Assembly (NCBI GenBank): GCA_964566795.1
Contig: CAZMIU010000001.1
Span: 333,091-397,090, forward strand
DNA from: an uncultured Candidatus Saccharibacteria bacterium
GTDB taxonomy: Bacteria > Patescibacteriota > Minisyncoccia > Phycocordibacterales > SBAW01
Length of the DNA: 64,000 bases
Direction: 5' to 3'
A model generated the notes under the pieces. The model searched no databases and was not told the origin of the DNA. It saw only the letters and a program-made list of their open reading frames with translations. How positions within the stretch are numbered: the first letter of the stretch is position 1; the number at the start of each line of letters is the position of its first letter. The translations under genes were made by a program, and so were the position numbers. Below are positions 19,206 to 48,301 of the stretch, piece after piece.

Positions 19206-19556
19206 TCAATTTACTAAAACGTGTATTTTCTGCTCTCGTATCTTTGAGGCCTCAGCCAAGGCGTCGGCAATCTCCTCTAAGTGGAGCCTAACCATCTCAT
19301 TGGGAATATGCATGGTGTTGTACCCATTCTTATGGGAGTAGTAGCCACGGCCCAAATCGGCCAAGATCTGCTTAGGATCGGTAAGGTGCTGGATGCCGTC
19401 TACCTCAATGTTTATTTTGGCTCTTGGGAGCGCCAAATCCACAGTTTTAAAACCGTCGTGTAATTCCACGTATACCTTTACATCCCTATCCTCTAGAGCC
19501 TGCCTTAGCGACTCGGCTTCTGCGGTCGGGACCTTAAATCGAGTTAGTTTTAGCAC
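19206..19556 (-). CDS. DUF559-domain protein with a Vsr-like endonuclease fold.
   Basis: TAEAESL...F..VDLALPRAKINIEVDGIQH...D...GY matches the DUF559 pattern (IEvDG.qH). It lies 50 bp downstream of, and co-oriented with, the PHP-ATPase gene. Confidence 0.55.
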   Translation of the reverse strand: MLKLTRFKVPTAEAESLRQALEDRDVKVYVELHDGFKTVDLALPRAKINIEVDGIQHLTDPKQILADLGRGYYSHKNGYNTMHIPNEMVRLHLEEIADALAEASKIREQKIHVLVN

Positions 19557-19606
19557 ACCCCTATTCTACCGCTGTTTTCAGGCAGAAAGTGACAATAGTG
19601 ACACTT

Positions 19607-22216
19607 TTACCGGATATTGAGCTTCTGCATACGTTTCCTCAATGCTTCTTGGCCGCCCTCTAGTATCCTTATGATGTCACTCCTCCTGTCGGAGTTTTCT
19701 ATAGACCCAGTGGCGTAGGCAAAGTCGTACTTCCCGTTCGCCACTCTTTTAATGTCTGAGGCGACAATGTTCTCAGAGTCCGCACATATAACGAGGCTGG
19801 CATTGTGTGTGACGACTATTATCTGCCTTTCCTCTTTTTCCGACTTAACGAAATTGACCAAGTCAGTGGCTACCCCGCCTACATCGAGATCATCTTCAGG
19901 CTGGTCGATAAGGATTGGATATTTTTCGTCGTCAAATCGGAATATGAGCTCAAGCAGGGCTATTGCCTTTTGTCCGCCCGTCATATCCTTAAAGTGCGTT
20001 TCTCCCCCTTTCGTCTTCACTGAGTTAAGGTAGTCGATCTCATATCTGTTCCGGAGAAGCTGCGAGAGCACGGACGATAGATCGCCCGCTTCTACTTTTG
20101 TCCTAATCTTGCCGTCGACAAGTCCGACCACTATTTTCTTTACAGCTTGCTTACTCAACGGCACCGGGGCGTCGCCAAAAAGAGCCTTAATATCCCCGTC
20201 ACCCTTAAGGGCGGGGTCAGAATCCCGAGTGTTTATATTCCTTTCGACAAAAAGTTTGAGTTGGTCGGTATTGTATTTTGCGGATACCTCGATTTTAAGG
20301 AATGAGAACTTTTCGTCGAATTTGATTGTCTTGTAGATAGACTCCTGCTGGGCGTCAAAGTCCGCGTACGAATCTACAAGATCCTCAATGGCCTTATCCC
20401 GTTGCTGTTTCGCCTTCTCAAGCTTCTCGGTAAGGTCTTTAATCTTGTCCTGCAACTCCTGAAGTGAGGAGAGTTCTTTCGTAAGGTCGTCGAGGGCCTT
20501 ACTTTTCTTAATCTTGTCTTCCAGAGCTTTTACGACTTTTCCCTGCTCAGAGATTTCGGCTTCTGCTTCCTTAATCTGCTTGTCGATCCTCCCTATTTCG
20601 TCGGCGATGAGCTTTTTAAGGCTCTCTTTGCTCTTCTTGCTCAATTCCTCCCGGATCAACTCCTGCCGCGCCGCCGAGAGTAAGCTGAATTCCTGATCGG
20701 AAATGAAGATGCTAGCGCCGGTTTTTTGGAGCGACGACAGAATCTCCTTGTCTTGCTTCAGCACATCAACTGCCTTGGTGCCGTTTGATACTGCTTTTTG
20801 GGCTTGCGAATACTTCTGTATTTCTTGGCTGGTAAGCCGGGAATTGCCCGAGCCCTTGTACTTGCCTATCTGCGTGTTCTTCTTTTTTACTTCCTCATCG
20901 ATCTCTTTCTTCGATCCCTGCTTTTTCAGAGCAGCCTCGGTCTCCTTGATCCTGGAATCTGCCGTTATCAGCTTTTCGATAACGCCCTCAATCTTCACCC
21001 TATTCTTCGAGACAAAATTCTCGTAAGCCTGCACCGCGTTCGCAAACCTAGTATTTTTCTTAAGCAGTTTAGTGAGGAACACGTCGCGTTCGCCGGTCTT
21101 TTCGCCATCGTCATATGCCAAAGCGCTCAAGTAGTTCTGTGGGATGTAGAAAATACTTTTAGGGCTTTCCTCGGTGCCGCCGTTCTTCTGTCCATCGCCC
21201 CATACCACTTCGAAGCTGCCCAATGGATAGGGACTGCGCTTTTCTTTATCATTGAATTCTGTAGGATCTATCTTTTGGGCCGTATTCCTCAAAAGGGTCG
21301 ATTTGCCGCTGCCGCGGACACCGATGATCGAGTTGAGGTCTTTATTGAAGTAGACCACCCTTTTATCTCCGGACGATGTCTTGTAAGTTACATGGTCAAT
21401 GACAACCCTGCCGGTCTTAGCCTCGCCCGGATCCCTCTCCTGAATCCGCACCCGGTCTCGTGGCTCGTACAGCGCCTCCTTTAACCCCAGGAAGGTCGTA
21501 TCAGCTTTTATCCATGTAAAGCCGGATCCTATTGTGGATTTTTGATGGGTGTCGGAGCAAAAGAAGACCGGCTTTGGCTCTGCGTCCTTGTAGCGGTCAG
21601 TCTTAAGAAAAAAGTCGGTGTCTTCCTTTTTGCCAAACAACGCATCGGTTTTCTTATCGATTACAACTGCGAGGTTGTTTCCTCGTCCGTCATCCTGCGC
21701 CGACGGCCGGTAGCTGCCGTCGCCGCGCGGACAGGCCACAAGGATATAGTCCTCAAGGTGCTTAATATCCTTATCTTGCTCAAGCGCGGTTTTGAGCGAG
21801 TCAAATGCGATAGAGGTATTTTTTATCTCGGTAGGCGTTAGATCCTTGCAGTACTTGTCATCAATGGTCTTAAGCCTTCCGAGGAATCCTTGGATTTTTG
21901 CCGGAGACACTTGCTCGGAGAAAATGACGTGGATGTGCATCTCCTCGTTATCCTTATTTTGAGGCTGTGTCCTAAACTCAAGATTTGGAAGCACTGTTAT
22001 GCCCTTTGCCTTGAGCATCGCCCCAATATTCTCTAGTTCGTCCTCCGCGAAGTGGAAGTAATTGGTCATGCCGACTACGGCAATATCTTTTGCGACAAGT
22101 TCAGCCACAAACTCGTCGGCGGTGCACCCGTCATATTTATTGGCCAAAAAGGTCTGCGGCGTGTGCACGTGCAAATCCCATTTCCGCCACTCTGTGCCTC
22201 GTTCGTGCTTATTCAT
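19607..22216 (-). CDS. PHP-domain phosphoesterase fused to an SMC/SbcC-like ABC ATPase with a coiled-coil insert (869 aa).
   Basis: N-terminal PHP motif: WDLHVHTPQT, then a metal-ligand His/Asp pattern. Walker A GVRGSGKST. About 350 aa of Lys/Glu coiled coil. ABC signature MTGGQKA, Walker B ILIDQPEDDLD, H-loop VVTHN. It resembles what I believe NCBI labels TrlF-family AAA-like ATPases; that label is unverified. Confidence 0.8.
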   Translation of the reverse strand: MNKHERGTEWRKWDLHVHTPQTFLANKYDGCTADEFVAELVAKDIAVVGMTNYFHFAEDELENIGAMLKAKGITVLPNLEFRTQPQNKDNEEMHIHVIFSEQVSPAKIQGFLGRLKTIDDKYCKDLTPTEIKNTSIAFDSLKTALEQDKDIKHLEDYILVACPRGDGSYRPSAQDDGRGNNLAVVIDKKTDALFGKKEDTDFFLKTDRYKDAEPKPVFFCSDTHQKSTIGSGFTWIKADTTFLGLKEALYEPRDRVRIQERDPGEAKTGRVVIDHVTYKTSSGDKRVVYFNKDLNSIIGVRGSGKSTLLRNTAQKIDPTEFNDKEKRSPYPLGSFEVVWGDGQKNGGTEESPKSIFYIPQNYLSALAYDDGEKTGERDVFLTKLLKKNTRFANAVQAYENFVSKNRVKIEGVIEKLITADSRIKETEAALKKQGSKKEIDEEVKKKNTQIGKYKGSGNSRLTSQEIQKYSQAQKAVSNGTKAVDVLKQDKEILSSLQKTGASIFISDQEFSLLSAARQELIREELSKKSKESLKKLIADEIGRIDKQIKEAEAEISEQGKVVKALEDKIKKSKALDDLTKELSSLQELQDKIKDLTEKLEKAKQQRDKAIEDLVDSYADFDAQQESIYKTIKFDEKFSFLKIEVSAKYNTDQLKLFVERNINTRDSDPALKGDGDIKALFGDAPVPLSKQAVKKIVVGLVDGKIRTKVEAGDLSSVLSQLLRNRYEIDYLNSVKTKGGETHFKDMTGGQKAIALLELIFRFDDEKYPILIDQPEDDLDVGGVATDLVNFVKSEKEERQIIVVTHNASLVICADSENIVASDIKRVANGKYDFAYATGSIENSDRRSDIIRILEGGQEALRKRMQKLNIR

Positions 22217-22554
22217 AAAATTAAGGCCTCAGCCTTACCCGCTACATTACCACTTTTCCCAAGAAAAAACGCCTGTCTCAAAAAAGCGCAAAAGTATGGA
22301 GATAGTTGGAAGTATTTGCAATTGACGACGTGCTTTTTAGGTTTTCGGATACAAAAATTCATCTAAAAATGCTCAAAATGAGCGTTTTTGATTGTAAATT
22401 TTTGCGGTACTGTCGCGCTCGTGCTACAATTGAAATTAATAACGGTAACTGGTCCGATACACGAGACCTAACATAACCGGCACAATCTCCGATCGCGACG
22501 CCGTCGATCACGCGGGACCGCCAACACTATCAGTTCGTTAACAACAGAATAGTT

Positions 22555-23838
22555 ATGGCAAACGTATCTATCAAGTACGTCTCTATCGACGTGCTTAAAC
22601 CCGCGGCGTATAACCCGCGCAAGATCTCGCCAGAGGCCCTGGCGCAGCTCAAAGAGAGTATCGCCAAGTACTCTGTGGTCGACCCGTTAATCGTCAACTC
22701 CGCTCCCAAGCGCAAAAACGTGGTCATTGGGGGCCATATGCGCCTTAGGGCGGCCAAAGAGCTCGGGCACAAGGAGATACCGGTCGTGTATCTCAATATC
22801 CCCGACATCAAGAGGGAGAAAGAGCTCAATCTTCGCCTGCACAAGAACATGGGCGAATTCGACTTCGATCTCCTCAAAAAGCTCGATTTCGACCTCTTGC
22901 TCGATGTAGGGTTCGACAAGGACGCTCTCAACGACATCTGGGCAGAGCAGCTTAAATCGCGCTCCGATGCCTTCGATGTCGATAAGGAGCTCAAGAGCAT
23001 CAAGAAGCCGCAGACGCGGCTGGGCGACCTCATACTCCTCGGCCCGCACAAGCTCTTGTGCGGCGACTCGACCAAGCCCGAGAACTTAGAGCACCTGCTC
23101 GGCGACGAAAAGGCGGCGATGATATTCAGCGATCCCAAGTACAACATCAAGTTGGACTACAACGGCGGGGTCGGCGGCAAGAAGTCCTACGGCGGCAAAG
23201 TCGACGATAACCTATCCGACGAGAAGTACCGCGACTTCCTCAAGGCCAGCATGGAGGCAGCACTCGCGGTCACGCAAGAGGACGCGCATATCCTGTACTG
23301 GTGCGATCAGACCTATATCTGGCTCGTGCAATGCCTCTACCGCGACCTCGGCATTGCCAATAAAAGAGTTTGCATCTGGCTCAAGAATGGCCAGAACCCT
23401 ACCCCGGGCGTAGCCTTCTCCAAGTGCTACGAGCCCTGCGTATATGGCGTGCGCGGCAAGCCGTACCTCAATAAGAAGCTGACTAAGCTCAATGAGGTGC
23501 TCAACGCCGACACGACAACGGGCAACAGCCTGCTAAGCGAATCGCTCGACCACCTGGATGTATGGGCGGTCAATCGCGTGCCCGGCAAGGACATGGAGCA
23601 CGCGACCTCGAAGCCTCCGGCACTGTATGAGAAAGCGATAAGGCGCTGCACAAAGCAGGGAGACATAATCCTGGATTCCTTCTCCGGCTCGGGCAGCACA
23701 CTTATTGCGGGCGAGCAGACAGGCCGCAAGGTCTACGCGGTCGAGCTTGAGCCTATCTTTTGCGACCTCACCATTCGTCGATATGAAGCGCTAACAGGCA
23801 CAAAGGCCAAGATTATCCGCTCCGATGAAGAAGTCTAG
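22555..23838 (+). CDS. ParB-like nuclease domain fused to a beta-class N6/N4 DNA methyltransferase.
   Basis: ParB N-domain: VSIDVLKPAAYNPRK...GGHMRLRAAKELGH. MTase motif IV variant FSDPKYN lies before motif I ILDSFSGSGST, the beta-class order. Fusions of this kind are typical of phage and plasmid orphan MTases. Confidence 0.8.
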   Translation: MANVSIKYVSIDVLKPAAYNPRKISPEALAQLKESIAKYSVVDPLIVNSAPKRKNVVIGGHMRLRAAKELGHKEIPVVYLNIPDIKREKELNLRLHKNMGEFDFDLLKKLDFDLLLDVGFDKDALNDIWAEQLKSRSDAFDVDKELKSIKKPQTRLGDLILLGPHKLLCGDSTKPENLEHLLGDEKAAMIFSDPKYNIKLDYNGGVGGKKSYGGKVDDNLSDEKYRDFLKASMEAALAVTQEDAHILYWCDQTYIWLVQCLYRDLGIANKRVCIWLKNGQNPTPGVAFSKCYEPCVYGVRGKPYLNKKLTKLNEVLNADTTTGNSLLSESLDHLDVWAVNRVPGKDMEHATSKPPALYEKAIRRCTKQGDIILDSFSGSGSTLIAGEQTGRKVYAVELEPIFCDLTIRRYEALTGTKAKIIRSDEEV

Positions 23839-24256
23839 GAGAAATCAGTTCCTGGACCAGCTCTGCACAATTCCTAATGTCTCGCTCGCGTGCGAGAAGA
23901 CAGGGCTATCTAGGAACACCATCTACCGGTGGCGCGGCGAGGACGAGGAGTTCAAGAAGGAAATGGACGCCGCGCTCAAAGCAGGTGTCGAGACCATCAA
24001 CGATTTGGCCGAGAGCAAGCTCATCAGCCACATCAACAACGGCAGCATGAGGGCTATCGAGTATTGGCTTACCAATCACAAGAAAGCTTATGTGCGCCCG
24101 AAGCCCAAGGACTTCTGGGACGATCTCTTGGGCAAGATTCCCGTCACCTCAATCAACATCCTGCCACCCCTGCCCCCTTCCCAGGCGCAGGCGGAGCACT
24201 TGGAGAAGATTCGCAAAGAGCGGGAGGAGGGGCAGCATGGATCAGTTAATCAGTAA
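23825..24256 (+). CDS. Phage terminase small-subunit-like HTH protein.
   Basis: FLDQLCTIPNVSLACEKTGLSRNTIYRWRGEDEEFKKEMDAALKAGVETINDLAESKL is the classic N-terminal HTH of small terminase / phage DNA-binding proteins. Confidence 0.5.
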   Translation: MKKSRRNQFLDQLCTIPNVSLACEKTGLSRNTIYRWRGEDEEFKKEMDAALKAGVETINDLAESKLISHINNGSMRAIEYWLTNHKKAYVRPKPKDFWDDLLGKIPVTSINILPPLPPSQAQAEHLEKIRKEREEGQHGSVNQ

Positions 24257-24507: not shown

Positions 24508-24511
24508 CCAC

Positions 24512-24537
24512 AAACCCCGCGAACTATCGCGGGGTTT
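24512..24537. terminator. Intrinsic terminator hairpin.
   Basis: CCCCGCGA-ACTA-TCGCGGGG is followed by TTTGTGTG. Confidence 0.5.
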
Positions 24538-25234
24538 GTGTGTTATATGCCTGTCCTACATGCCACCTAAGGCGCTCATAGGAGCCAGTATCAAGCGCTC
24601 GTTGGCCACTGAGCATTGAGGAGAAGAATATCGGCACTTGTCCACTATCCAATTCAAGCCAATGAAAGCCGTGGTCCTCATCAAACGATAGTTTATCCGC
24701 AAAGTGCGCTCTTATTATCCCGCACGACCCTGCGTTAGACACTACTATTGCCTTGGGCCGTATCTCATTGAGAGCTTCGAGAAAGATATCGAGCTGATCG
24801 CGGCCAAACTCGTTGAGAGCCTTATCCTTGTCGCGTACAAGCTGGAGAAAATCATTTTGCTTCGTCTGCCGGTATACGAATAAGTCGATGTGCTGGAAAT
24901 GCGTCCTGCAGAGTTTCGCCATCTCATGCATACGCTTAAAGAACGCATACCCTTCCTTGACGAGCCTGCCGGAGCGCACAGAATCATCGACGCTGTTTGG
25001 ATTGGAGGCAAAATTGCTCCAGGAGTAAAAGGATCCAGGATCCCTCGTCTCGAATTCTGTGCCGCGCATAAGCTTACGGACTCCAACAGGATTAAACGAA
25101 GGGTTCATGCCGATAAACAGGATGCCGCCCTGTTTAAACTCGTCATAGAAGATAGGCGCGTATACTTCCTTGTTGTCGCTAAAATATTTCTTCCATACCG
25201 CAAGAATCTTGCGGTTTATTTTCTCATTAATCAC
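24524..25234 (-). CDS. Hypothetical protein, possibly UDG-superfamily-like.
   Basis: GILFIGMNPSFNP is reminiscent of the motif A of Mug/TDG-type glycosylases (GINPG). The GTG start is inferred. Weak. Confidence 0.3.
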   Translation of the reverse strand: MINEKINRKILAVWKKYFSDNKEVYAPIFYDEFKQGGILFIGMNPSFNPVGVRKLMRGTEFETRDPGSFYSWSNFASNPNSVDDSVRSGRLVKEGYAFFKRMHEMAKLCRTHFQHIDLFVYRQTKQNDFLQLVRDKDKALNEFGRDQLDIFLEALNEIRPKAIVVSNAGSCGIIRAHFADKLSFDEDHGFHWLELDSGQVPIFFSSMLSGQRALDTGSYERLRWHVGQAYNTQTPR

Positions 25235-25469
25235 TTGCTCTAGCGGGTTTTAGAGCGACGGAGTAAGCCCAAATCAAAAGGCTCCTGGCCATCGCGACAG
25301 AACCTTTCGGCCCTGCCCATAGCGGTTTCCCGATATGACCCGCTAGAGTGACTCTGACCAGGAGTCCTTTGATCTCTAGCGGGATTTTCGACCTTGCCGC
25401 AACAGGATGTTACGGGGTAGGCCCTTTTATATAATTGTCCGTAATACGATGCTATGTATTACGCCCTTG

Positions 25470-26114: not shown

Positions 26115-27434
26115 ATGGAATTATCAACCAAAGTCCCTATAGGGACGGTAGTCCCATTATCAATAGAAAAAGTTAAGTACGCCCTGTATGCCCGCAAGTC
26201 GACCGAACAGGACGAGCGGCAAGCATTATCCATCGACTCCCAAATAAAGGAGATGTTGGCAGTAGCAGAGCGAGAGGATTTGGACATTATAGATATCCGG
26301 CGAGAATCCCATTCAGCAAAAGAATCAGGTCAAAGGCCAGTGTTTAAGGAACTGCTAGAAGACATAAGACGAGGCAGATTCAACGGGATACTTACCTGGA
26401 ATCCCGATCGCCTAAGCCGCAACGCAGGCGACCTTGGCTCCGTAGTAGACCTCATGGACCAAAAATTGCTAGTCGAAATCCGTACTTATGGGCAGCATTT
26501 CCGCAACTCGCCCAATGAGAAGTTCCTGCTCATGATTCTGTGTAGTCAGGCGAAGTTAGAGAACGATAATAAAAGCATTAATGTAAAGCGCGGCCTCAAG
26601 ACAAGGGTGGAAATGGGCCTATGGCCCTCTCCTGCTCCAACTGGATACTTAAAAGAAAAGAGGATGGACCGGAAATGCGAAACCATCATAGACCCCGCCA
26701 GGGCACCGGTCATCAAACAAATGTTTGAGAAGGTGGCCTACGAGAAATGGAGCGGCCGCAAAGTCTACAACTGGCTCAAGTTCGAGCTTAACTTCAAGAC
26801 CCCAGGCGGCAATAAAAACCTGACGCTCAGCAACGTCTATATGTTGCTCCAAAATCATTTTTACTACGGCGTATTTGAGTACCCCAAAAAGTCCGGCCGC
26901 TGGTATCAAGGCAAGCACGAACCTCTTATCACCAAAGAGCTATTCGATTTAGTCCAGACGCAAGTCAAAAGCCAGTTTGTAAGGGCTGAGAGCAAGGAGT
27001 TTGCCTTTACAAAACTTATGGAATGCGGCTTATGCGGCTCTGGTATTACCGCTGATGAGAAGTTCAAGAAGCAGAAGAATGGAAATACCCACCGGCATGT
27101 CTATTATGGATGCACAAAAGCGAGGGACAAGAATTGCAAAGGCGGGTATATAAACGAGGTGGTGCTGATTGAACAGTTTGTCGGGCTGATGGATACAATA
27201 GACCTAAACGAGATCGGGATCAAAGAAAAGATAAAAGCAGAGGTAGAGAGATTTAAGAAGTTTCAACAGTCAGTCCTAGGAGCCAAGGCCAAAATACAAG
27301 TAGCTGATATCGACATCCGCAATTACGCAAAATATCTTCTACAAGAAGGTGCCCCTATTGAAAAAAGAGAACTTCTATCTTGCCTCAAAAGTAAAATGCT
27401 ACTCAAAGAAAAGAACATATATTTAAGTCAGTAG
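26115..27434 (+). CDS. Large serine recombinase with a resolvase/invertase catalytic domain, a recombinase domain and a zinc ribbon.
   Basis: N-terminal catalytic domain: YALYARKSTEQD..., with the Ser nucleophile in the RKST context. Zinc ribbon: CGLCGSGI...YYGCTKARDKNCKGGY. Confidence 0.85.
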   Translation: MELSTKVPIGTVVPLSIEKVKYALYARKSTEQDERQALSIDSQIKEMLAVAEREDLDIIDIRRESHSAKESGQRPVFKELLEDIRRGRFNGILTWNPDRLSRNAGDLGSVVDLMDQKLLVEIRTYGQHFRNSPNEKFLLMILCSQAKLENDNKSINVKRGLKTRVEMGLWPSPAPTGYLKEKRMDRKCETIIDPARAPVIKQMFEKVAYEKWSGRKVYNWLKFELNFKTPGGNKNLTLSNVYMLLQNHFYYGVFEYPKKSGRWYQGKHEPLITKELFDLVQTQVKSQFVRAESKEFAFTKLMECGLCGSGITADEKFKKQKNGNTHRHVYYGCTKARDKNCKGGYINEVVLIEQFVGLMDTIDLNEIGIKEKIKAEVERFKKFQQSVLGAKAKIQVADIDIRNYAKYLLQEGAPIEKRELLSCLKSKMLLKEKNIYLSQ

Positions 27435-28078: not shown

Positions 28079-29962
28079 TTAAGCGTTGTATAGACGTAGG
28101 CCATTAAGGATGACAAGTATCGCAACGCCAGTATCAGCCATGATGGCAACCGGCAACGTAGCAAGACCGAATACAGCCAGCAATATAAATACTGCCTTAG
28201 CTAAAAGAGCAGCTCCTACATTTTGCTGTATTGTGCGAACTGTCCTCCTACTGAGCGAGACAGTTTCTGGAATAGCCTGCAAGTTGTCGTTCATAAGTGC
28301 AATATCGGCAGTCTCAATAGCGACATCTGATCCCTGTGCGCCCATAGCAATACCAACATTTGAGAGCGCGAGTGAGGGAGCGTCGTTTACACCGTCGCCC
28401 ACCATGGCCACTGAGCCGTACTTTTCCTTTAGTTCCCTCACCTTCTCTACCTTCTGTTCAGGAAGGAGAGAAGCATGGGACTCATTTATACCCACTCGCG
28501 CTGAAACCGCACTAGCGGTATGTTCGTTGTCTCCAGTCAACATGACAGAAGTAAGGCCTAAGTCTTTAAGTCGACCAATAACTGACTTCGATTCGTCTCG
28601 CACCTTGTCGGCAATGGCCAATGCTCCCATTACCTGCTTACCCTCGCTGATAAGAACGATGGTCTTGCCCTCACGCTCTAGCGGTTCAGTCTTTTGGAGC
28701 ACCTCTTTGGTCGGTATATCATGCGCATCCATAATCTTCGGGTTGCCTACGCAATGCTCTACATCGTCGCAGACCAGACAAACAGCCTTGCCGCCCTTGC
28801 CCGGGATATTTTCATACCTAGACATATCATGCGGGACGATTCCCTTTTCCTTAGCAAAAGCAAGAATGCTCTTGGAAAGCGGGTGCGAGGAGAACTGCTC
28901 CAGACCTGCGGCATCTTCAAGCACCTGCTTTTCGGTAAAACCCTCGAATGCAATGATGTCTGAGACGTACGGTTCGCCGCGAGTTAAAGTACCCGTCTTA
29001 TCGAACGCGATTGCTTTTACTTTCTTCAGCTCTTCCAGATACTTGCCGCCCTTAATGAGAACCCCTCTGCGCGAGGCTCCCCCAAGCGCGGAAGTAATGG
29101 CTACTGGTGTTGCTATGACCAGGGCACAAGGACATGCAATGACGAGAAGAATAAGGGCGCGGGAAAACCAAAGAAGGAACGGCTCCCCTAGCGCAAGCGG
29201 AGGAACAATTGATATGACAGCTGCAATACCGATCACGGACGGAGTGTAGTACTTGGCGAAACTGTCGATAAACTCCTGTGCCGGTGCCTTAGCCTTTTGC
29301 GCTTGCTCGACAAGCGATACAATCTTAGCAAAAGTAGAATTCTTACTTTCTTTTGTTACCTTGATTTCCAAGTAGCCTTGCTCGTTAAGCGTGCCGCCAA
29401 ACACGGCATCGCCCTCGCGCTTGTCCTTTGGTATGGGCTCCCCAGTGATGGTCGCTTCGTTGACTGCCGATATACCCTTAGTTATAAGGCCATCGAGCGG
29501 TATCATCTCGCCGGGCTTTACTGCAACAACCGTGTCGACTGTGACATCGGCAATTGGCTTAGTACTGCCATCCAGGAGCGTCGCGGTTTGTGGCGACTTA
29601 TGCAACAAAGCTTCGAGCGCCTTGCGCGACCGTCCTACTCCATAATCTTCCAGCGCCTCCGAAAGCGAGAAGAAGAAAACAACTGCTGCGGCTTCGGGAA
29701 GTTGGTTTATAAATATCGCCCCTATTGTCGCAATCACCACGAGAAAGTCGATATTGAGGAAACGTTGTTTAAGGAGCCCCTTAAGAGCGCCTAGCACGAC
29801 GTAGATACCGCCGGTCGCTATGCCGGTGAAGTACAGAGCGGTAAGAATCGCTGGCGAGATGGCGAAGAACGACAGTACGAAGGCCGCACCGGTAAACAAA
29901 CCGGAGATTATAGTGAAAATCTTTTTTAGGTCGAGATTCATATATACGTTTGAGTTAATCAA
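28079..29962 (-). CDS. P1B-type heavy-metal-translocating ATPase with a CPC motif, Zn/Cd/Pb- or Cu-type. It has no N-terminal HMA domain.
   Basis: ACPCALVIATP (TM6 CPC), [19 protein letters not shown]. Confidence 0.85.
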   Translation of the reverse strand: MINSNVYMNLDLKKIFTIISGLFTGAAFVLSFFAISPAILTALYFTGIATGGIYVVLGALKGLLKQRFLNIDFLVVIATIGAIFINQLPEAAAVVFFFSLSEALEDYGVGRSRKALEALLHKSPQTATLLDGSTKPIADVTVDTVVAVKPGEMIPLDGLITKGISAVNEATITGEPIPKDKREGDAVFGGTLNEQGYLEIKVTKESKNSTFAKIVSLVEQAQKAKAPAQEFIDSFAKYYTPSVIGIAAVISIVPPLALGEPFLLWFSRALILLVIACPCALVIATPVAITSALGGASRRGVLIKGGKYLEELKKVKAIAFDKTGTLTRGEPYVSDIIAFEGFTEKQVLEDAAGLEQFSSHPLSKSILAFAKEKGIVPHDMSRYENIPGKGGKAVCLVCDDVEHCVGNPKIMDAHDIPTKEVLQKTEPLEREGKTIVLISEGKQVMGALAIADKVRDESKSVIGRLKDLGLTSVMLTGDNEHTASAVSARVGINESHASLLPEQKVEKVRELKEKYGSVAMVGDGVNDAPSLALSNVGIAMGAQGSDVAIETADIALMNDNLQAIPETVSLSRRTVRTIQQNVGAALLAKAVFILLAVFGLATLPVAIMADTGVAILVILNGLRLYNA

Positions 29963-48226: not shown

Positions 48227-48301
48227 TGGCTGCGGGACTAGGACTCGAACCTAGATAACAACATTCAGAGTGTTGCGTCCTACCATTAGACGATCCCGCA
48301 A
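48227..48301 (-). tRNA. tRNA-Gln(CTG).
   Basis: Hand-folded: acceptor TGCGGGA/TCCCGCA; anticodon stem CAACA/TGTTG with loop CTCTGAA (anticodon CUG); T-arm CTAGG-TTCGAGT-CCTAG. The discriminator and CCA are encoded. Confidence 0.85.

What the first reader, a model, noticed from the sequence alone, without database searches (positions are those of the whole stretch)
19206..23838. Candidate uncharacterised defence module: a PHP-nuclease–SMC-type ATPase fusion plus a DUF559 endonuclease, divergent from a ParB–DNA-methyltransferase.
The 869-aa protein combines an N-terminal PHP phosphoesterase with a Rad50/SbcC-like ABC ATPase. The PHP motif is WDLHVHT. The ATPase has Walker A GVRGSGKST, a long coiled coil, signature MTGGQ, Walker B LIDQPEDD and H-loop VTHN. 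It is in effect a single-chain SbcCD- or Mre11/Rad50-like machine in which PHP replaces the calcineurin-type nuclease. A DUF559 (Vsr-like endonuclease fold) gene follows 50 bp downstream on the same strand. A ParB-nuclease–beta-class MTase fusion is transcribed divergently from a shared 338-bp intergenic region. An ATPase-nuclease beside a methyltransferase resembles a restriction-modification or abortive-infection logic. The PHP–SMC architecture is, to my knowledge, at most annotated generically as a 'TrlF-like AAA ATPase', with no demonstrated function.
Basis: partly seen in the sequence, partly recalled or inferred. Interest (0 to 1): 0.8.

Follow-up and report, generated by a model that had tools for sequence, protein, structure and literature searches.

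The report
Ppl-like defence nuclease on mobile element
The 869-residue protein is a real PHP-nuclease/ABC-ATPase fusion, but it belongs to the catalogued TrlF family and is an end-to-end relative of Ppl, a single-gene anti-phage nuclease whose mechanism is published. The neighbouring DUF559 and methyltransferase genes are not its dedicated partners.

Summary

The 869-aa protein is a full-length member of NCBIfam "TrlF family AAA-like ATPase" (470 bits, cutoff 350). A TrlF profile aligns end to end with E. coli Ppl (hhalign 99.7%, E 2e-25). Ppl is a validated single-gene anti-phage PHP 3'-5' exonuclease gated by NTP depletion and 3'-OH DNA ends. The architecture is therefore not uncharacterised, although I found no experiments on TrlF itself.

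The three-gene module is not supported:
- The 116-aa DUF559 gene is a promiscuous, 70-95% conserved Patescibacteria gene. It sits behind unrelated genes and was absent from 57 other TrlF loci. One DUF559 locus, L097, does carry a TrlF.
- The ParB-MTase belongs with a TerS-like gene, a LOOT RNA and a large serine recombinase. This phage-like element backbone also occurs without TrlF.
- TrlF can occur alone among housekeeping genes.

Across the family, TrlF genes abut methyltransferases or complete type I, II, IIG and III R-M systems, integrases, and defence genes on conjugative plasmids.

Verdict: a new member of a known kind, most likely a stand-alone Ppl-type defence nuclease carried as mobile-element cargo. 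Interest is modest.

The parts
19607..22216 (-). TrlF-family PHP-ABC ATPase gene (869 aa), the core of the finding.
   Evidence: NF045780 scores 469.7 bits (cutoff 350) over model positions 1-943 of 944. hhalign against E. coli Ppl gives 99.7%. There are 979 cluster representatives at E<=1e-30.
21467..22201 (-). PHP phosphoesterase domain (aa 6-250), the predicted nuclease.
   Evidence: Carries HxH at aa 16-18, plus E80, H96, D222 and H224, all conserved. Aligns to Ppl model positions 1-246. Foldseek matches the Pol III alpha PHP domain and RNase AM.
21101..21409 (-). ABC ATPase head, N-lobe (aa 270-372), with Walker A G299-T307 and Q-loop Q360.
   Evidence: Motifs are invariant in the alignment. 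The AriA and Rad50 P-loop regions are the only solved relatives found by sequence.
20327..21097 (-). Antiparallel coiled coil (aa 374-630). The apex lies near aa 500-515 and carries the conserved motif ISDQEFSLLS. There is no CxxC zinc hook.
   Evidence: AlphaFold secondary structure, conservation and Cys positions 31, 123, 162, 220 and 811 only.
19619..20299 (-). ABC head, C-lobe (aa 640-866): signature MTGGQ (745-749), Walker B and catalytic Glu in LIDQPEDD (769-776), and H-loop H804.
   Evidence: Aligns to Ppl model positions 758-881. The DQPE Walker B matches that of AriA.
19206..19556 (-). Small DUF559 (Vsr-like) endonuclease-fold gene, 50 nt downstream of TrlF. Probably co-transcribed, but not a dedicated partner.
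   Evidence: Pfam 22.7 bits. There are 319 homologues, the 120 listed being 66-100% identical, in Patescibacteria. Their contexts are heterogeneous. No terminator-like site lies on the minus strand between the two genes.
22217..22554 (.). 338-nt divergent intergenic region, 42% GC.
   Evidence: The promoter scan is no better than shuffled sequence.
22555..23838 (+). ParB_N plus beta-class N6/N4 DNA methyltransferase. Part of the phage-like element backbone.
   Evidence: Pfam and PADLOC MTase_II at 233 bits. Homologues occur in L060 (57% identity), L092, L062 and L053 and in 607 phage records. GC3 is 0.77, against 0.60 for TrlF.
23825..24256 (+). TerS-like HTH gene, overlapping the MTase stop codon.
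   Evidence: HTH_Tnp_1_2 at 29 bits and a weak Sf6_terminase hit. It is paired with the MTase in L060, L092 and L053. In L092 a TerL (Terminase_6C) follows it.
25296..25423 (-). LOOT RNA (RF03000), an element-associated non-coding RNA.
   Evidence: 70.7 bits against a gathering score of 46.4. It is also present in L053, L060, L062 and L092.
26115..27434 (+). Large serine recombinase, the likely integrase of the element.
   Evidence: Resolvase, Recombinase and Zn_ribbon_recom domains. Homologues 60-64% identical abut TrlF genes in L060, L016 and L011.

Best explanation
The 869-aa gene encodes a TrlF-family protein, a distant but end-to-end homologue of the anti-phage protein Ppl. I propose that it is a self-contained, single-gene defence nuclease. 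It is carried as cargo in a variable slot of a small phage-like integrative element of a Patescibacteria/Saccharibacteria-type genome. The element backbone comprises a serine recombinase, a ParB-MTase, a TerS-like gene and a LOOT RNA.

Shown here:
- Family membership and homology to Ppl.
- Intact PHP metal-ligand residues.
- A complete set of ABC ATPase motifs, with an AriA-like DQPE Walker B.
- A long coiled coil with a conserved apex.
- Mobile-element and R-M/defence-island context across the family.

Inferred by analogy with Ppl:
- Two ABC heads engage on NTP and hold the PHP 3'-5' exonuclease off.
- During infection, NTP depletion plus free 3'-OH DNA ends license exonucleolytic degradation of invading DNA.

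More speculative: the frequent adjacency to R-M systems means the ends are often supplied by restriction cleavage.

The DUF559 gene and the ParB-MTase are neighbours by element architecture, not obligate subunits.
For: Family and homology:
- NF045780 scores 469.7 bits against a cutoff of 350, over the full length.
- The N-terminus, Walker A region and C-terminus are collinear with the Ppl model.
- hhalign of the TrlF profile against E. coli plasmid Ppl WP_000233113.1 gives 99.7%, E 2.1e-25, over 777 columns (query 9-874, Ppl 2-888).
- Catalytic residues are conserved, and the fold matches PHP plus SMC-like ATPases.

Autonomy:
- L058 (72% identical) is a solo insertion. Its only upstream neighbour is a malic enzyme and a sigma factor lies downstream.
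- The gene upstream of TrlF in the closest relative with one (L060, 348 aa) has no homologue beside any other TrlF, and the window has no gene in that position.

Defence and mobile-element context:
- TrlF abuts a type III R-M system (L061; Lactococcus plasmid).
- It abuts a type II EcoO109I R-M pair (L005) and lies inside a type I operon (L027).
- It abuts type I and type IIG systems.
- Among 98 immediate neighbours, the commonest families are MTases, ResIII and recombinases.
- 17 of 57 loci have an MTase within 5 kb.
- 1120 plasmid records match, 806 of them conjugative. One Klebsiella IncFII plasmid carries an ATPase+UvrD pair, TrlF, an Abi gene and CcdAB together.
- Serine recombinases 60-64% identical abut TrlFs of 28-69% identity.

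Ppl function and mechanism come from PMC11482910, PMC12904381 and PMC13434339 (its reference 51, Xu et al. 2026).
Against: - No experiment exists for any TrlF-family protein that I could find.
- The Ppl model score (116 bits) is far below its cutoff of 1000, and identity to Ppl is only 21%. Activity and triggers may therefore differ.
- The first His of the HxH motif is Gln in one aligned homologue, P0113.
- PHP folds also include RNases such as RNase AM, so the substrate could be RNA.
- The recurrent MTase/R-M adjacency, and a second TrlF...DUF559 co-occurrence (L097), leave room for functional coupling that I cannot exclude.
- The element boundaries were not determined.
Confidence: 0.6

Rival explanations
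1. TrlF (ATPase-nuclease), DUF559 (second nuclease) and the ParB-MTase form one R-M-like or abortive-infection module. Methylation marks self DNA and TrlF/DUF559 attack unmodified DNA.
For: - MTases are strongly over-represented next to TrlF.
- TrlF and this ParB-MTase backbone recur in L060 and L053.
- L097 has TrlF, a PD-(D/E)XK nuclease and DUF559 in a row.
- The L023 MTase beside TrlF carries an embedded DUF559 domain.
- L010 and L001 pair TrlF with a lone MTase.
Against: - DUF559 is absent from 57 other TrlF loci, including the 65-72% identical ones.
- DUF559 sits behind aminoacyl-tRNA synthetase, DnaX, MscL and RNase H genes, among others.
- The ParB-MTase/TerS pair occurs with unrelated cargo (L062, L092) and in hundreds of phages.
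- TrlF occurs solo (L058).
- Composition differs: TrlF GC3 is 0.60 and MTase GC3 is 0.77.
- The MTase partners elsewhere belong to at least five unrelated classes and mostly bring their own restriction enzyme.
Confidence: 0.1
2. TrlF is a guard of restriction-modification, analogous to PrrC, RloC or PARIS AriA. It would stay latent while the neighbouring R-M or MTase is functional. Phage anti-restriction proteins would trigger it, and its PHP domain might then cleave RNA rather than DNA.
For: - TrlF is embedded within or abutting type I, II, IIG and III R-M operons.
- The only solved sequence relatives of its ATPase head are AriA and Rad50, and it shares AriA's DQPE Walker B.
- The PHP domain also matches the exoribonuclease RNase AM.
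- The PrrC and PARIS precedents are from my own knowledge, plus the abstract of PMC11464382.
Against: - The closest characterised homologue, Ppl, is reported as a DNA 3'-5' exonuclease that senses NTP levels and DNA ends, not anti-restriction proteins (PMC12904381).
- TrlF also occurs with no R-M nearby (L058; 40 of 57 loci have no MTase within 5 kb).
- There is no TOPRIM or anticodon-nuclease partner.
Confidence: 0.12
3. TrlF serves the mobile element itself rather than the host. For example, it excludes competing phages, plasmids or satellites, or processes DNA ends during element replication or packaging.
For: - TrlF recurs beside one serine-recombinase clade although the TrlF sequences themselves are only 28-30% identical (L011, L016).
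- It sits next to the ParB-MTase, TerS-like gene and LOOT RNA in the window, L060 and L053.
- 806 of 1120 plasmid hits are conjugative plasmids.
- A few phage or satellite-sized records carry full-length copies.
Against: - This overlaps with the best explanation, because defence genes carried by mobile elements are the norm.
- The same backbone carries unrelated cargo (L062, L092).
- TrlF is also chromosomal with no element genes (L058), so it is not an essential element function.
Confidence: 0.12
4. TrlF is a housekeeping DNA double-strand-break repair machine, a single-chain analogue of SbcCD or Mre11-Rad50.
For: It has an SMC/Rad50-like fold and a nuclease fused to an ABC ATPase.
Against: - Its distribution is sporadic and horizontally transferred across phyla.
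- It lies in a low-GC island.
- Its neighbours are R-M genes, integrases and Abi genes, not repair genes.
- Rad50 models score 15 bits against cutoffs of 700-1087.
- It has no zinc hook.
Confidence: 0.03

Closest known systems
Ppl (single-gene anti-phage system; NCBIfam NF042955, PADLOC Ppl)
   Same: - Same length class (891 versus 869 aa) and the same collinear architecture: N-terminal PHP, ABC Walker A lobe, coiled coil, then signature/Walker B lobe.
- Shared motifs: HxH, SDAH, W-K..D..F.GL and GxRGSGKSTL.
- hhalign gives 99.7%.
- Both are found on conjugative plasmids and mobile elements.
   Different: - Only 21% identity.
- It scores 116 bits against Ppl's cutoff of 1000, so it is a different family (TrlF).
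- The trigger, substrate and NTP regulation are untested for TrlF.
TrlF family AAA-like ATPase (NF045780) and the sister Spaf_1101 family (NF045781)
   Same: A full-length match above the curated cutoff. The family includes annotated genes on Klebsiella, E. coli and Lactococcus plasmids.
   Different: Nothing differs, because it is a member. The family name carries no demonstrated function that I could find.
PARIS AriA, Gabija GajA and other OLD-type ABC ATPases
   Same: An ABC head with a DQPE Walker B and a coiled-coil insertion. AriA is the best solved relative by sequence. Both have a defence context.
   Different: In TrlF the nuclease is a fused PHP domain. PARIS uses a separate TOPRIM protein (AriB), and Gabija uses a fused TOPRIM domain. 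No partner gene is conserved beside TrlF.
Rad50/SbcC-Mre11/SbcD, and the SMC-like defence systems Wadjet JetC and Lamassu LmuB
   Same: The overall fold of ABC head plus antiparallel coiled coil. The logic of an ATPase coupled to a nuclease.
   Different: There is no calcineurin-type nuclease partner, no zinc hook, no kleisin or KITE subunits, and no significant sequence-model scores.
PrrC/RloC (ABC-ATPase nucleases embedded in type I R-M loci)
   Same: The genomic habit of sitting inside or beside R-M operons (L027, L045, L015).
   Different: The nuclease domain is different (PHP, not an anticodon nuclease), and no homology is shown. The resemblance comes from my own knowledge and is only a lead.

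Membership tests
TrlF family AAA-like ATPase (NF045780) | Whole-protein score above the curated cutoff, with full-length model coverage. | tested here: met
   469.7 bits against 350; residues 6-866 align to model positions 1-943 of 944.
TrlF family AAA-like ATPase (NF045780) | Conserved PHP metal ligands and a complete set of ABC ATPase motifs. | tested here: met
   E80, H96, D222, H224, G299-T307, Q360, M745-Q749, D771-D776 and H804 are invariant, and H18 is nearly so.
Ppl anti-phage protein (NF042955 / PADLOC PDLC02208) | Score above the family cutoff (equivalog). | tested here: not met
   116 bits against a cutoff of 1000. PADLOC Ppl scores 87.7 bits, mostly over the C-terminus.
Ppl anti-phage protein (NF042955 / PADLOC PDLC02208) | Collinear PHP, ABC ATPase and coiled-coil architecture, homologous over the whole length. 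| tested here: met
   hhalign 99.7%, E 2.1e-25, 777 columns, 9-874 against 2-888. Fragment scans agree.
Ppl anti-phage protein (NF042955 / PADLOC PDLC02208) | Acts as a single-gene system with no conserved partner. | tested here: inconclusive
   No neighbour is conserved across 57 loci, and there is a solo insertion in L058. Autonomy of function needs an experiment.
Ppl anti-phage protein (NF042955 / PADLOC PDLC02208) | ssDNA 3'-5' exonuclease activity, inhibited by NTPs and licensed by 3'-OH ends. | not testable with these tools
   This is biochemistry reported for E. coli Ppl only (PMC12904381; Xu et al. 2026, via PMC13434339).
Restriction-modification system (TrlF as restriction subunit with the ParB-MTase as cognate) | Nuclease and MTase are conserved as a linked pair. 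| tested here: not met
   The pair is seen only on this element type (window, L060, L053). The MTase occurs without TrlF in L062, L092 and phages, and TrlF occurs without it in more than 50 loci.
SbcCD / Mre11-Rad50 | A calcineurin-type nuclease partner, a CxxC zinc hook in the coiled coil, and a Rad50 model score. | tested here: not met
   There is no such neighbour, no CxxC, and Rad50 models score about 15 bits against cutoffs of 700-1087.
PARIS (AriA/AriB) | An adjacent TOPRIM AriB partner. | tested here: not met
   The neighbours are DUF559 and the ParB-MTase. AriA similarity is limited to the P-loop and Walker B regions.
DUF559 (PF04480), Vsr-like endonuclease fold; applies to the 116-aa gene | Pfam gathering score and a Vsr-like fold. 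| tested here: met
   22.7 bits against 20.6. Best fold hits are 3r3p (I-Bth0305I, probability 0.98, E 0.012) and 3hrl, from a low-confidence model (pLDDT 64.6).

The most novel reading that the evidence does not exclude
TrlF proteins are restriction-coupled exonucleases. Their licence would be the DNA ends produced on unmethylated DNA by the neighbouring restriction enzyme, or in this window by the DUF559 nickase. The adjacent methyltransferase would then define 'self' for TrlF indirectly. In that case TrlF plus any R-M system forms a modular two-stage 'cut then shred' immune unit. This might be especially important in reduced Patescibacteria genomes, where other end-processing nucleases may be missing (I did not check this).
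Probability: 0.15. Interest if true: 0.6.

Novelty: new member of a known kind. Interest (0 to 1): 0.35.

Why it matters
The practical value is a correction. The PHP-ABC ATPase architecture is already a validated anti-phage design (Ppl), and this gene belongs to its large, catalogued but untested sister family, TrlF.

Three things remain worth knowing:
- TrlF is very widespread. There are 979 clusters at E<=1e-30, and hundreds of conjugative Klebsiella and E. coli plasmids carry it, yet no experiment was found.
- Its recurrent placement next to or inside R-M systems of every type suggests functional synergy. That could be tested easily with the enterobacterial plasmid copies.
- It illustrates how ultra-small Patescibacteria acquire defence genes, on serine-recombinase, phage-like elements that also carry the orphan LOOT RNA.

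Tried and rejected
- Literature on 'TrlF': no relevant paper. The origin of the name was not found.
- The primary Ppl paper (Xu et al. 2026) is not held. Its mechanism is cited second-hand from PMC12904381 and PMC13434339.
- Millman 2022 preprint and Aravind 2024 paper: no mention of Ppl or PHP.
- PDB by sequence: no Ppl or TrlF structure, only the AriA and Rad50 P-loop regions. Foldseek against viral structures gave only generic Rad50/gp46-like hits.
- A conserved upstream partner in the closest relatives was rejected. The upstream gene in L058 is a malic enzyme. The 348-aa upstream gene in L060 has no homologue beside other TrlFs or in the window.
- att sites and element ends: only short, chance-level repeats, so the boundaries are unresolved.
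- The promoter scan of the 338-nt intergenic region was no better than shuffled sequence.
- The MTase-proximity control used DUF559 loci, which turned out to be MTase-rich themselves (10 of 84). The seeds came from TrlF loci. The 17-of-57 figure is therefore indicative only, not a calibrated enrichment.
- p236 (24524-25234) has no Pfam, NCBIfam, PADLOC or PDB match.
Full report
OBSERVATION. The three ORFs are exactly as described: 869 aa at 19607-22216(-), 116 aa at 19206-19556(-) and 427 aa at 22555-23838(+). The gaps are 50 nt and 338 nt. All quoted motifs are present in the translation. In an alignment of 15 homologues (45-72% identical), the ABC motifs are invariant: Walker A G299-T307, Q360, signature M745-Q749, Walker B D771-D776 and H804. 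So are the PHP ligands E80, H96, D222 and H224, and H18 is nearly invariant. Pfam itself did not call PHP here. The PHP assignment rests on the NCBIfam alignments, on these conserved residues, and on an AlphaFold model (pLDDT 76). The N-terminal barrel of that model matches the Pol III alpha PHP domain and RNase AM. The rest of the model matches MukB, JetC, Rad50, LmuB, AriA and RecN. The coiled coil (about aa 374-630) has a conserved apex motif (ISDQEFSLLS) and no CxxC hook. The small gene scores just above the DUF559 gathering threshold. Its low-confidence model best matches the Vsr-like catalytic domain of homing endonuclease I-Bth0305I and the DUF559 structure 3hrl. The MTase carries ParB_N plus N6_N4_Mtase in the beta-class motif order.

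WHAT THE BIG PROTEIN IS. It is a full-length member of NCBIfam NF045780, 'TrlF family AAA-like ATPase' (469.7 bits, cutoff 350). It scores more weakly against the Spaf_1101 family and against 'anti-phage protein Ppl'; PADLOC also reports Ppl as its best hit. Scanning fragments shows collinearity with Ppl: the N-terminus matches Ppl model positions 1-246, the Walker A region matches 265-295, and the C-terminus matches 758-881. I retrieved an annotated Ppl (WP_000233113.1, 891 aa) from E. coli plasmid pCY598. A profile comparison with the TrlF alignment gave 99.7% probability, E 2.1e-25 and 777 aligned columns running from end to end, at 21% identity. Ppl is a single-gene anti-phage system with a PHP and an ATPase domain (PMC11482910). 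It is now described as an ssDNA 3'-5' exonuclease whose PHP and NTPase domains are inhibited by bound NTPs, and which is activated by phage-induced NTP depletion together with 3'-OH ends (PMC12904381; primary reference Xu et al., Mol Cell 2026;86:180, cited in PMC13434339 and in 10.64898/2026.05.12.722862). I could not read the primary paper. For TrlF proper, however, I found no literature. The family is large: 979 cluster representatives at E<=1e-30 and 3937 at E<=1e-10.

IS THERE A THREE-GENE MODULE? I fetched 57 genomic loci with TrlF relatives, contigs for the three closest homologues, and 86 loci carrying the small DUF559 gene.

(a) DUF559. No homologue of the window's DUF559 lies in any of the other TrlF loci. 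This includes the 72%, 69% and 65% identical ones. The DUF559 protein is itself remarkable. It has 319 homologues, and the 120 listed are 66-100% identical across Saccharibacteria, Paceibacterota, Minisyncoccia and other groups. It is almost always co-directional with an unrelated upstream gene and only a few nucleotides behind it. Those upstream genes include aminoacyl-tRNA synthetases, DnaX, YceG, MscL, RNase H, MTases, ResIII and an integrase. Only one of 84 DUF559 loci (L097) has a TrlF nearby. There the order is ResIII helicase, TrlF (516 bits to NF045780), a PD-(D/E)XK nuclease, then DUF559. DUF559 is thus a promiscuous, possibly selfish, small gene that sometimes lands in variable regions. 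It is not a dedicated TrlF subunit. It is probably co-transcribed with TrlF here, because no terminator-like site lies between them on the minus strand.

(b) ParB-MTase. It overlaps a TerS-like HTH gene. The MTase-HTH pair recurs in L060, L053, L062 and L092. In L092 a large terminase follows it. Homologous MTases occur in 607 phage records, for example just upstream of terS/terL in Streptococcus prophage Javan100. A LOOT RNA (RF03000) lies in the window at 25296-25423 and also in L053, L060, L062 and L092. A large serine recombinase (26115-27434) has 60-64% identical homologues next to TrlF in L060, L016 and L011. L060 is syntenic with the window: SerRec, LOOT, HTH, MTase, then TrlF on the divergent strand. 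It has two extra genes between the MTase and TrlF and no DUF559. L062 and L092 keep the frame 'HTH<-MTase | -> variable genes -> DUF559' with unrelated cargo. The MTase therefore belongs to a phage-like element backbone, and TrlF occupies a variable cargo slot. Composition agrees: TrlF and DUF559 have GC3 of 0.60 and 0.56, against 0.77 and 0.76 for the MTase and HTH gene. The wider low-GC region runs from about 19 kb to a tRNA-Gln at 48.2 kb.

(c) TrlF alone. In L058 (72% identical), TrlF sits among housekeeping genes, with a malic enzyme upstream and a sigma factor downstream. The gene upstream of TrlF in L060 has no relative beside any other TrlF or in the window.

WHAT SURVIVES OF THE R-M IDEA. 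Across the family, the commonest immediate neighbours are DNA methyltransferases, R-M subunits and recombinases. The cases found were:
- type III Mod-Res followed directly by TrlF (L061, 65% identical; Lactococcus plasmid);
- M.EcoO109I-like MTase, R.EcoO109I, then TrlF with no gap (L005), and an EcoRI-like MTase upstream (L002);
- hsdM, a 406-aa gene, TrlF, hsdS (L027), and hsdR, hsdMS, TrlF (L045), with a similar arrangement in L015;
- type IIG enzymes (L013, L023, L036), including one with an embedded DUF559 domain (L023);
- lone MTases (L010; L001).

Seventeen of 57 loci have an MTase within 5 kb, and most of these abut TrlF. This count is not calibrated: the seeds came from these loci, and my control set was itself MTase-rich. 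On plasmids, 1120 records match, 192 over the full length and 806 on conjugative plasmids. A Klebsiella IncFII plasmid carries an ABC-ATPase plus UvrD pair, TrlF, an Abi gene and CcdAB in a row. Since most of these R-M systems have their own nuclease, TrlF looks like an additional defence layer rather than a restriction subunit.

MECHANISM.

Shown:
- homology to Ppl;
- intact PHP and ABC catalytic residues;
- an AriA-like DQPE Walker B;
- a coiled coil with a conserved apex;
- mobile-element and defence context.

Inferred:
- NTP-dependent head engagement keeps the PHP 3'-5' exonuclease off;
- NTP depletion and free 3'-OH ends during infection release it to degrade invading DNA.

Speculative: restriction cleavage by neighbouring R-M systems, or nicking by DUF559, supplies those ends.

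Rivals:
- an R-M guard of the PrrC or PARIS type, possibly RNA-targeting (0.12);
- a function for the element itself (0.12);
- SbcCD-like repair (0.03).

COMPARISON AND NOVELTY. The gene is a member of the TrlF family. It is homologous to Ppl but is not a Ppl equivalog. It is not an SbcCD, PARIS or R-M subunit by the defining features tested. I class it as a new member of a known kind. Its residual interest lies in three points: the TrlF family is untested although widespread, its linkage to R-M is unexplained, and its carrier is a LOOT-RNA-bearing serine-recombinase element in Patescibacteria.

Noticed in passing
window 25296-25423 (-); also L053:549-677, L060:2611-2736, L062:1896-2020, L092:356-482: A LOOT RNA (Rfam RF03000, 70.7 bits against a gathering score of 46.4) lies between p236 and the DUF4279 gene. 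It recurs in four other Patescibacteria loci that share the ParB-MTase, TerS-like gene and, where visible, the serine-recombinase backbone. This orphan RNA motif appears to be a component of that mobile-element family.
   Followed up: partly
window 19206-19556 (-); loci L062-L147: The 116-aa DUF559 protein is 70-95% identical in its closest relatives, which span very different Patescibacteria lineages. It sits a few nucleotides downstream of unrelated genes, both housekeeping and defence. Its model resembles the catalytic domain of homing endonuclease I-Bth0305I. This pattern suggests a mobile or selfish small endonuclease gene.
   Followed up: partly
window 26115-27434 (+); L011:5063-6373, L016:10788-12110, L060:1156-2439: One clade of large serine recombinases (60-64% identical) is found directly beside TrlF genes that are only 28-30% identical to each other (L011, L016) or 69% identical (L060). 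In L011 and L016 a tRNA gene lies close by. This suggests a long-standing pairing of this integrase clade with TrlF cargo.
   Followed up: partly
window ~19100-48300: GC content drops from about 57% to about 48% across roughly 29 kb and returns to host level beside a tRNA-Gln (48227-48300). This larger, probably composite island includes a P-type metal ATPase (28079-29962) and ORFs that look like cytochrome-oxidase subunits; these labels are my reading of the translations and were not tested.
   Followed up: no
window 22555-23838, aa 193-196: Motif IV of the ParB-MTase is DPKY. Its closest relatives have DPIY (L060) and DPNF (L092), while more distant ones keep the canonical DPPY (L062, L053). 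The second proline is lost in this sub-clade, and activity and specificity are unknown.
   Followed up: no
L023:3717-7973: A 1418-aa type IIG-like protein directly upstream of a Bacteroidota TrlF has the domain order DUF7149, DUF7814, DUF559, Eco57I, TaqI_C. It carries a strong DUF559 domain (99.8 bits) inserted in the enzyme.
   Followed up: no
L148 (Klebsiella pneumoniae plasmid NZ_CP091063.1): A compact plasmid defence island contains an ABC/OLD-like ATPase plus a UvrD helicase, TrlF, an Abi family protein and CcdAB. Nearly identical TrlF copies occur on many clinical Klebsiella and Enterobacteriaceae plasmids, and I found no functional study.
   Followed up: partly
window 22175-22216: The public NCBI protein for this gene is 855 aa (P0001), while the ORF is 869 aa. 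Residues 6-14 (RGTEWRKWD) are conserved in homologues and align with the N-terminus of Ppl, so the longer start is the better one.
   Followed up: yes
window 24509-24540: A perfect 14-bp stem with a 4-nt loop lies between the convergent p78 and p236 genes. It is probably a bidirectional terminator separating two transcription units of the element.
   Followed up: no
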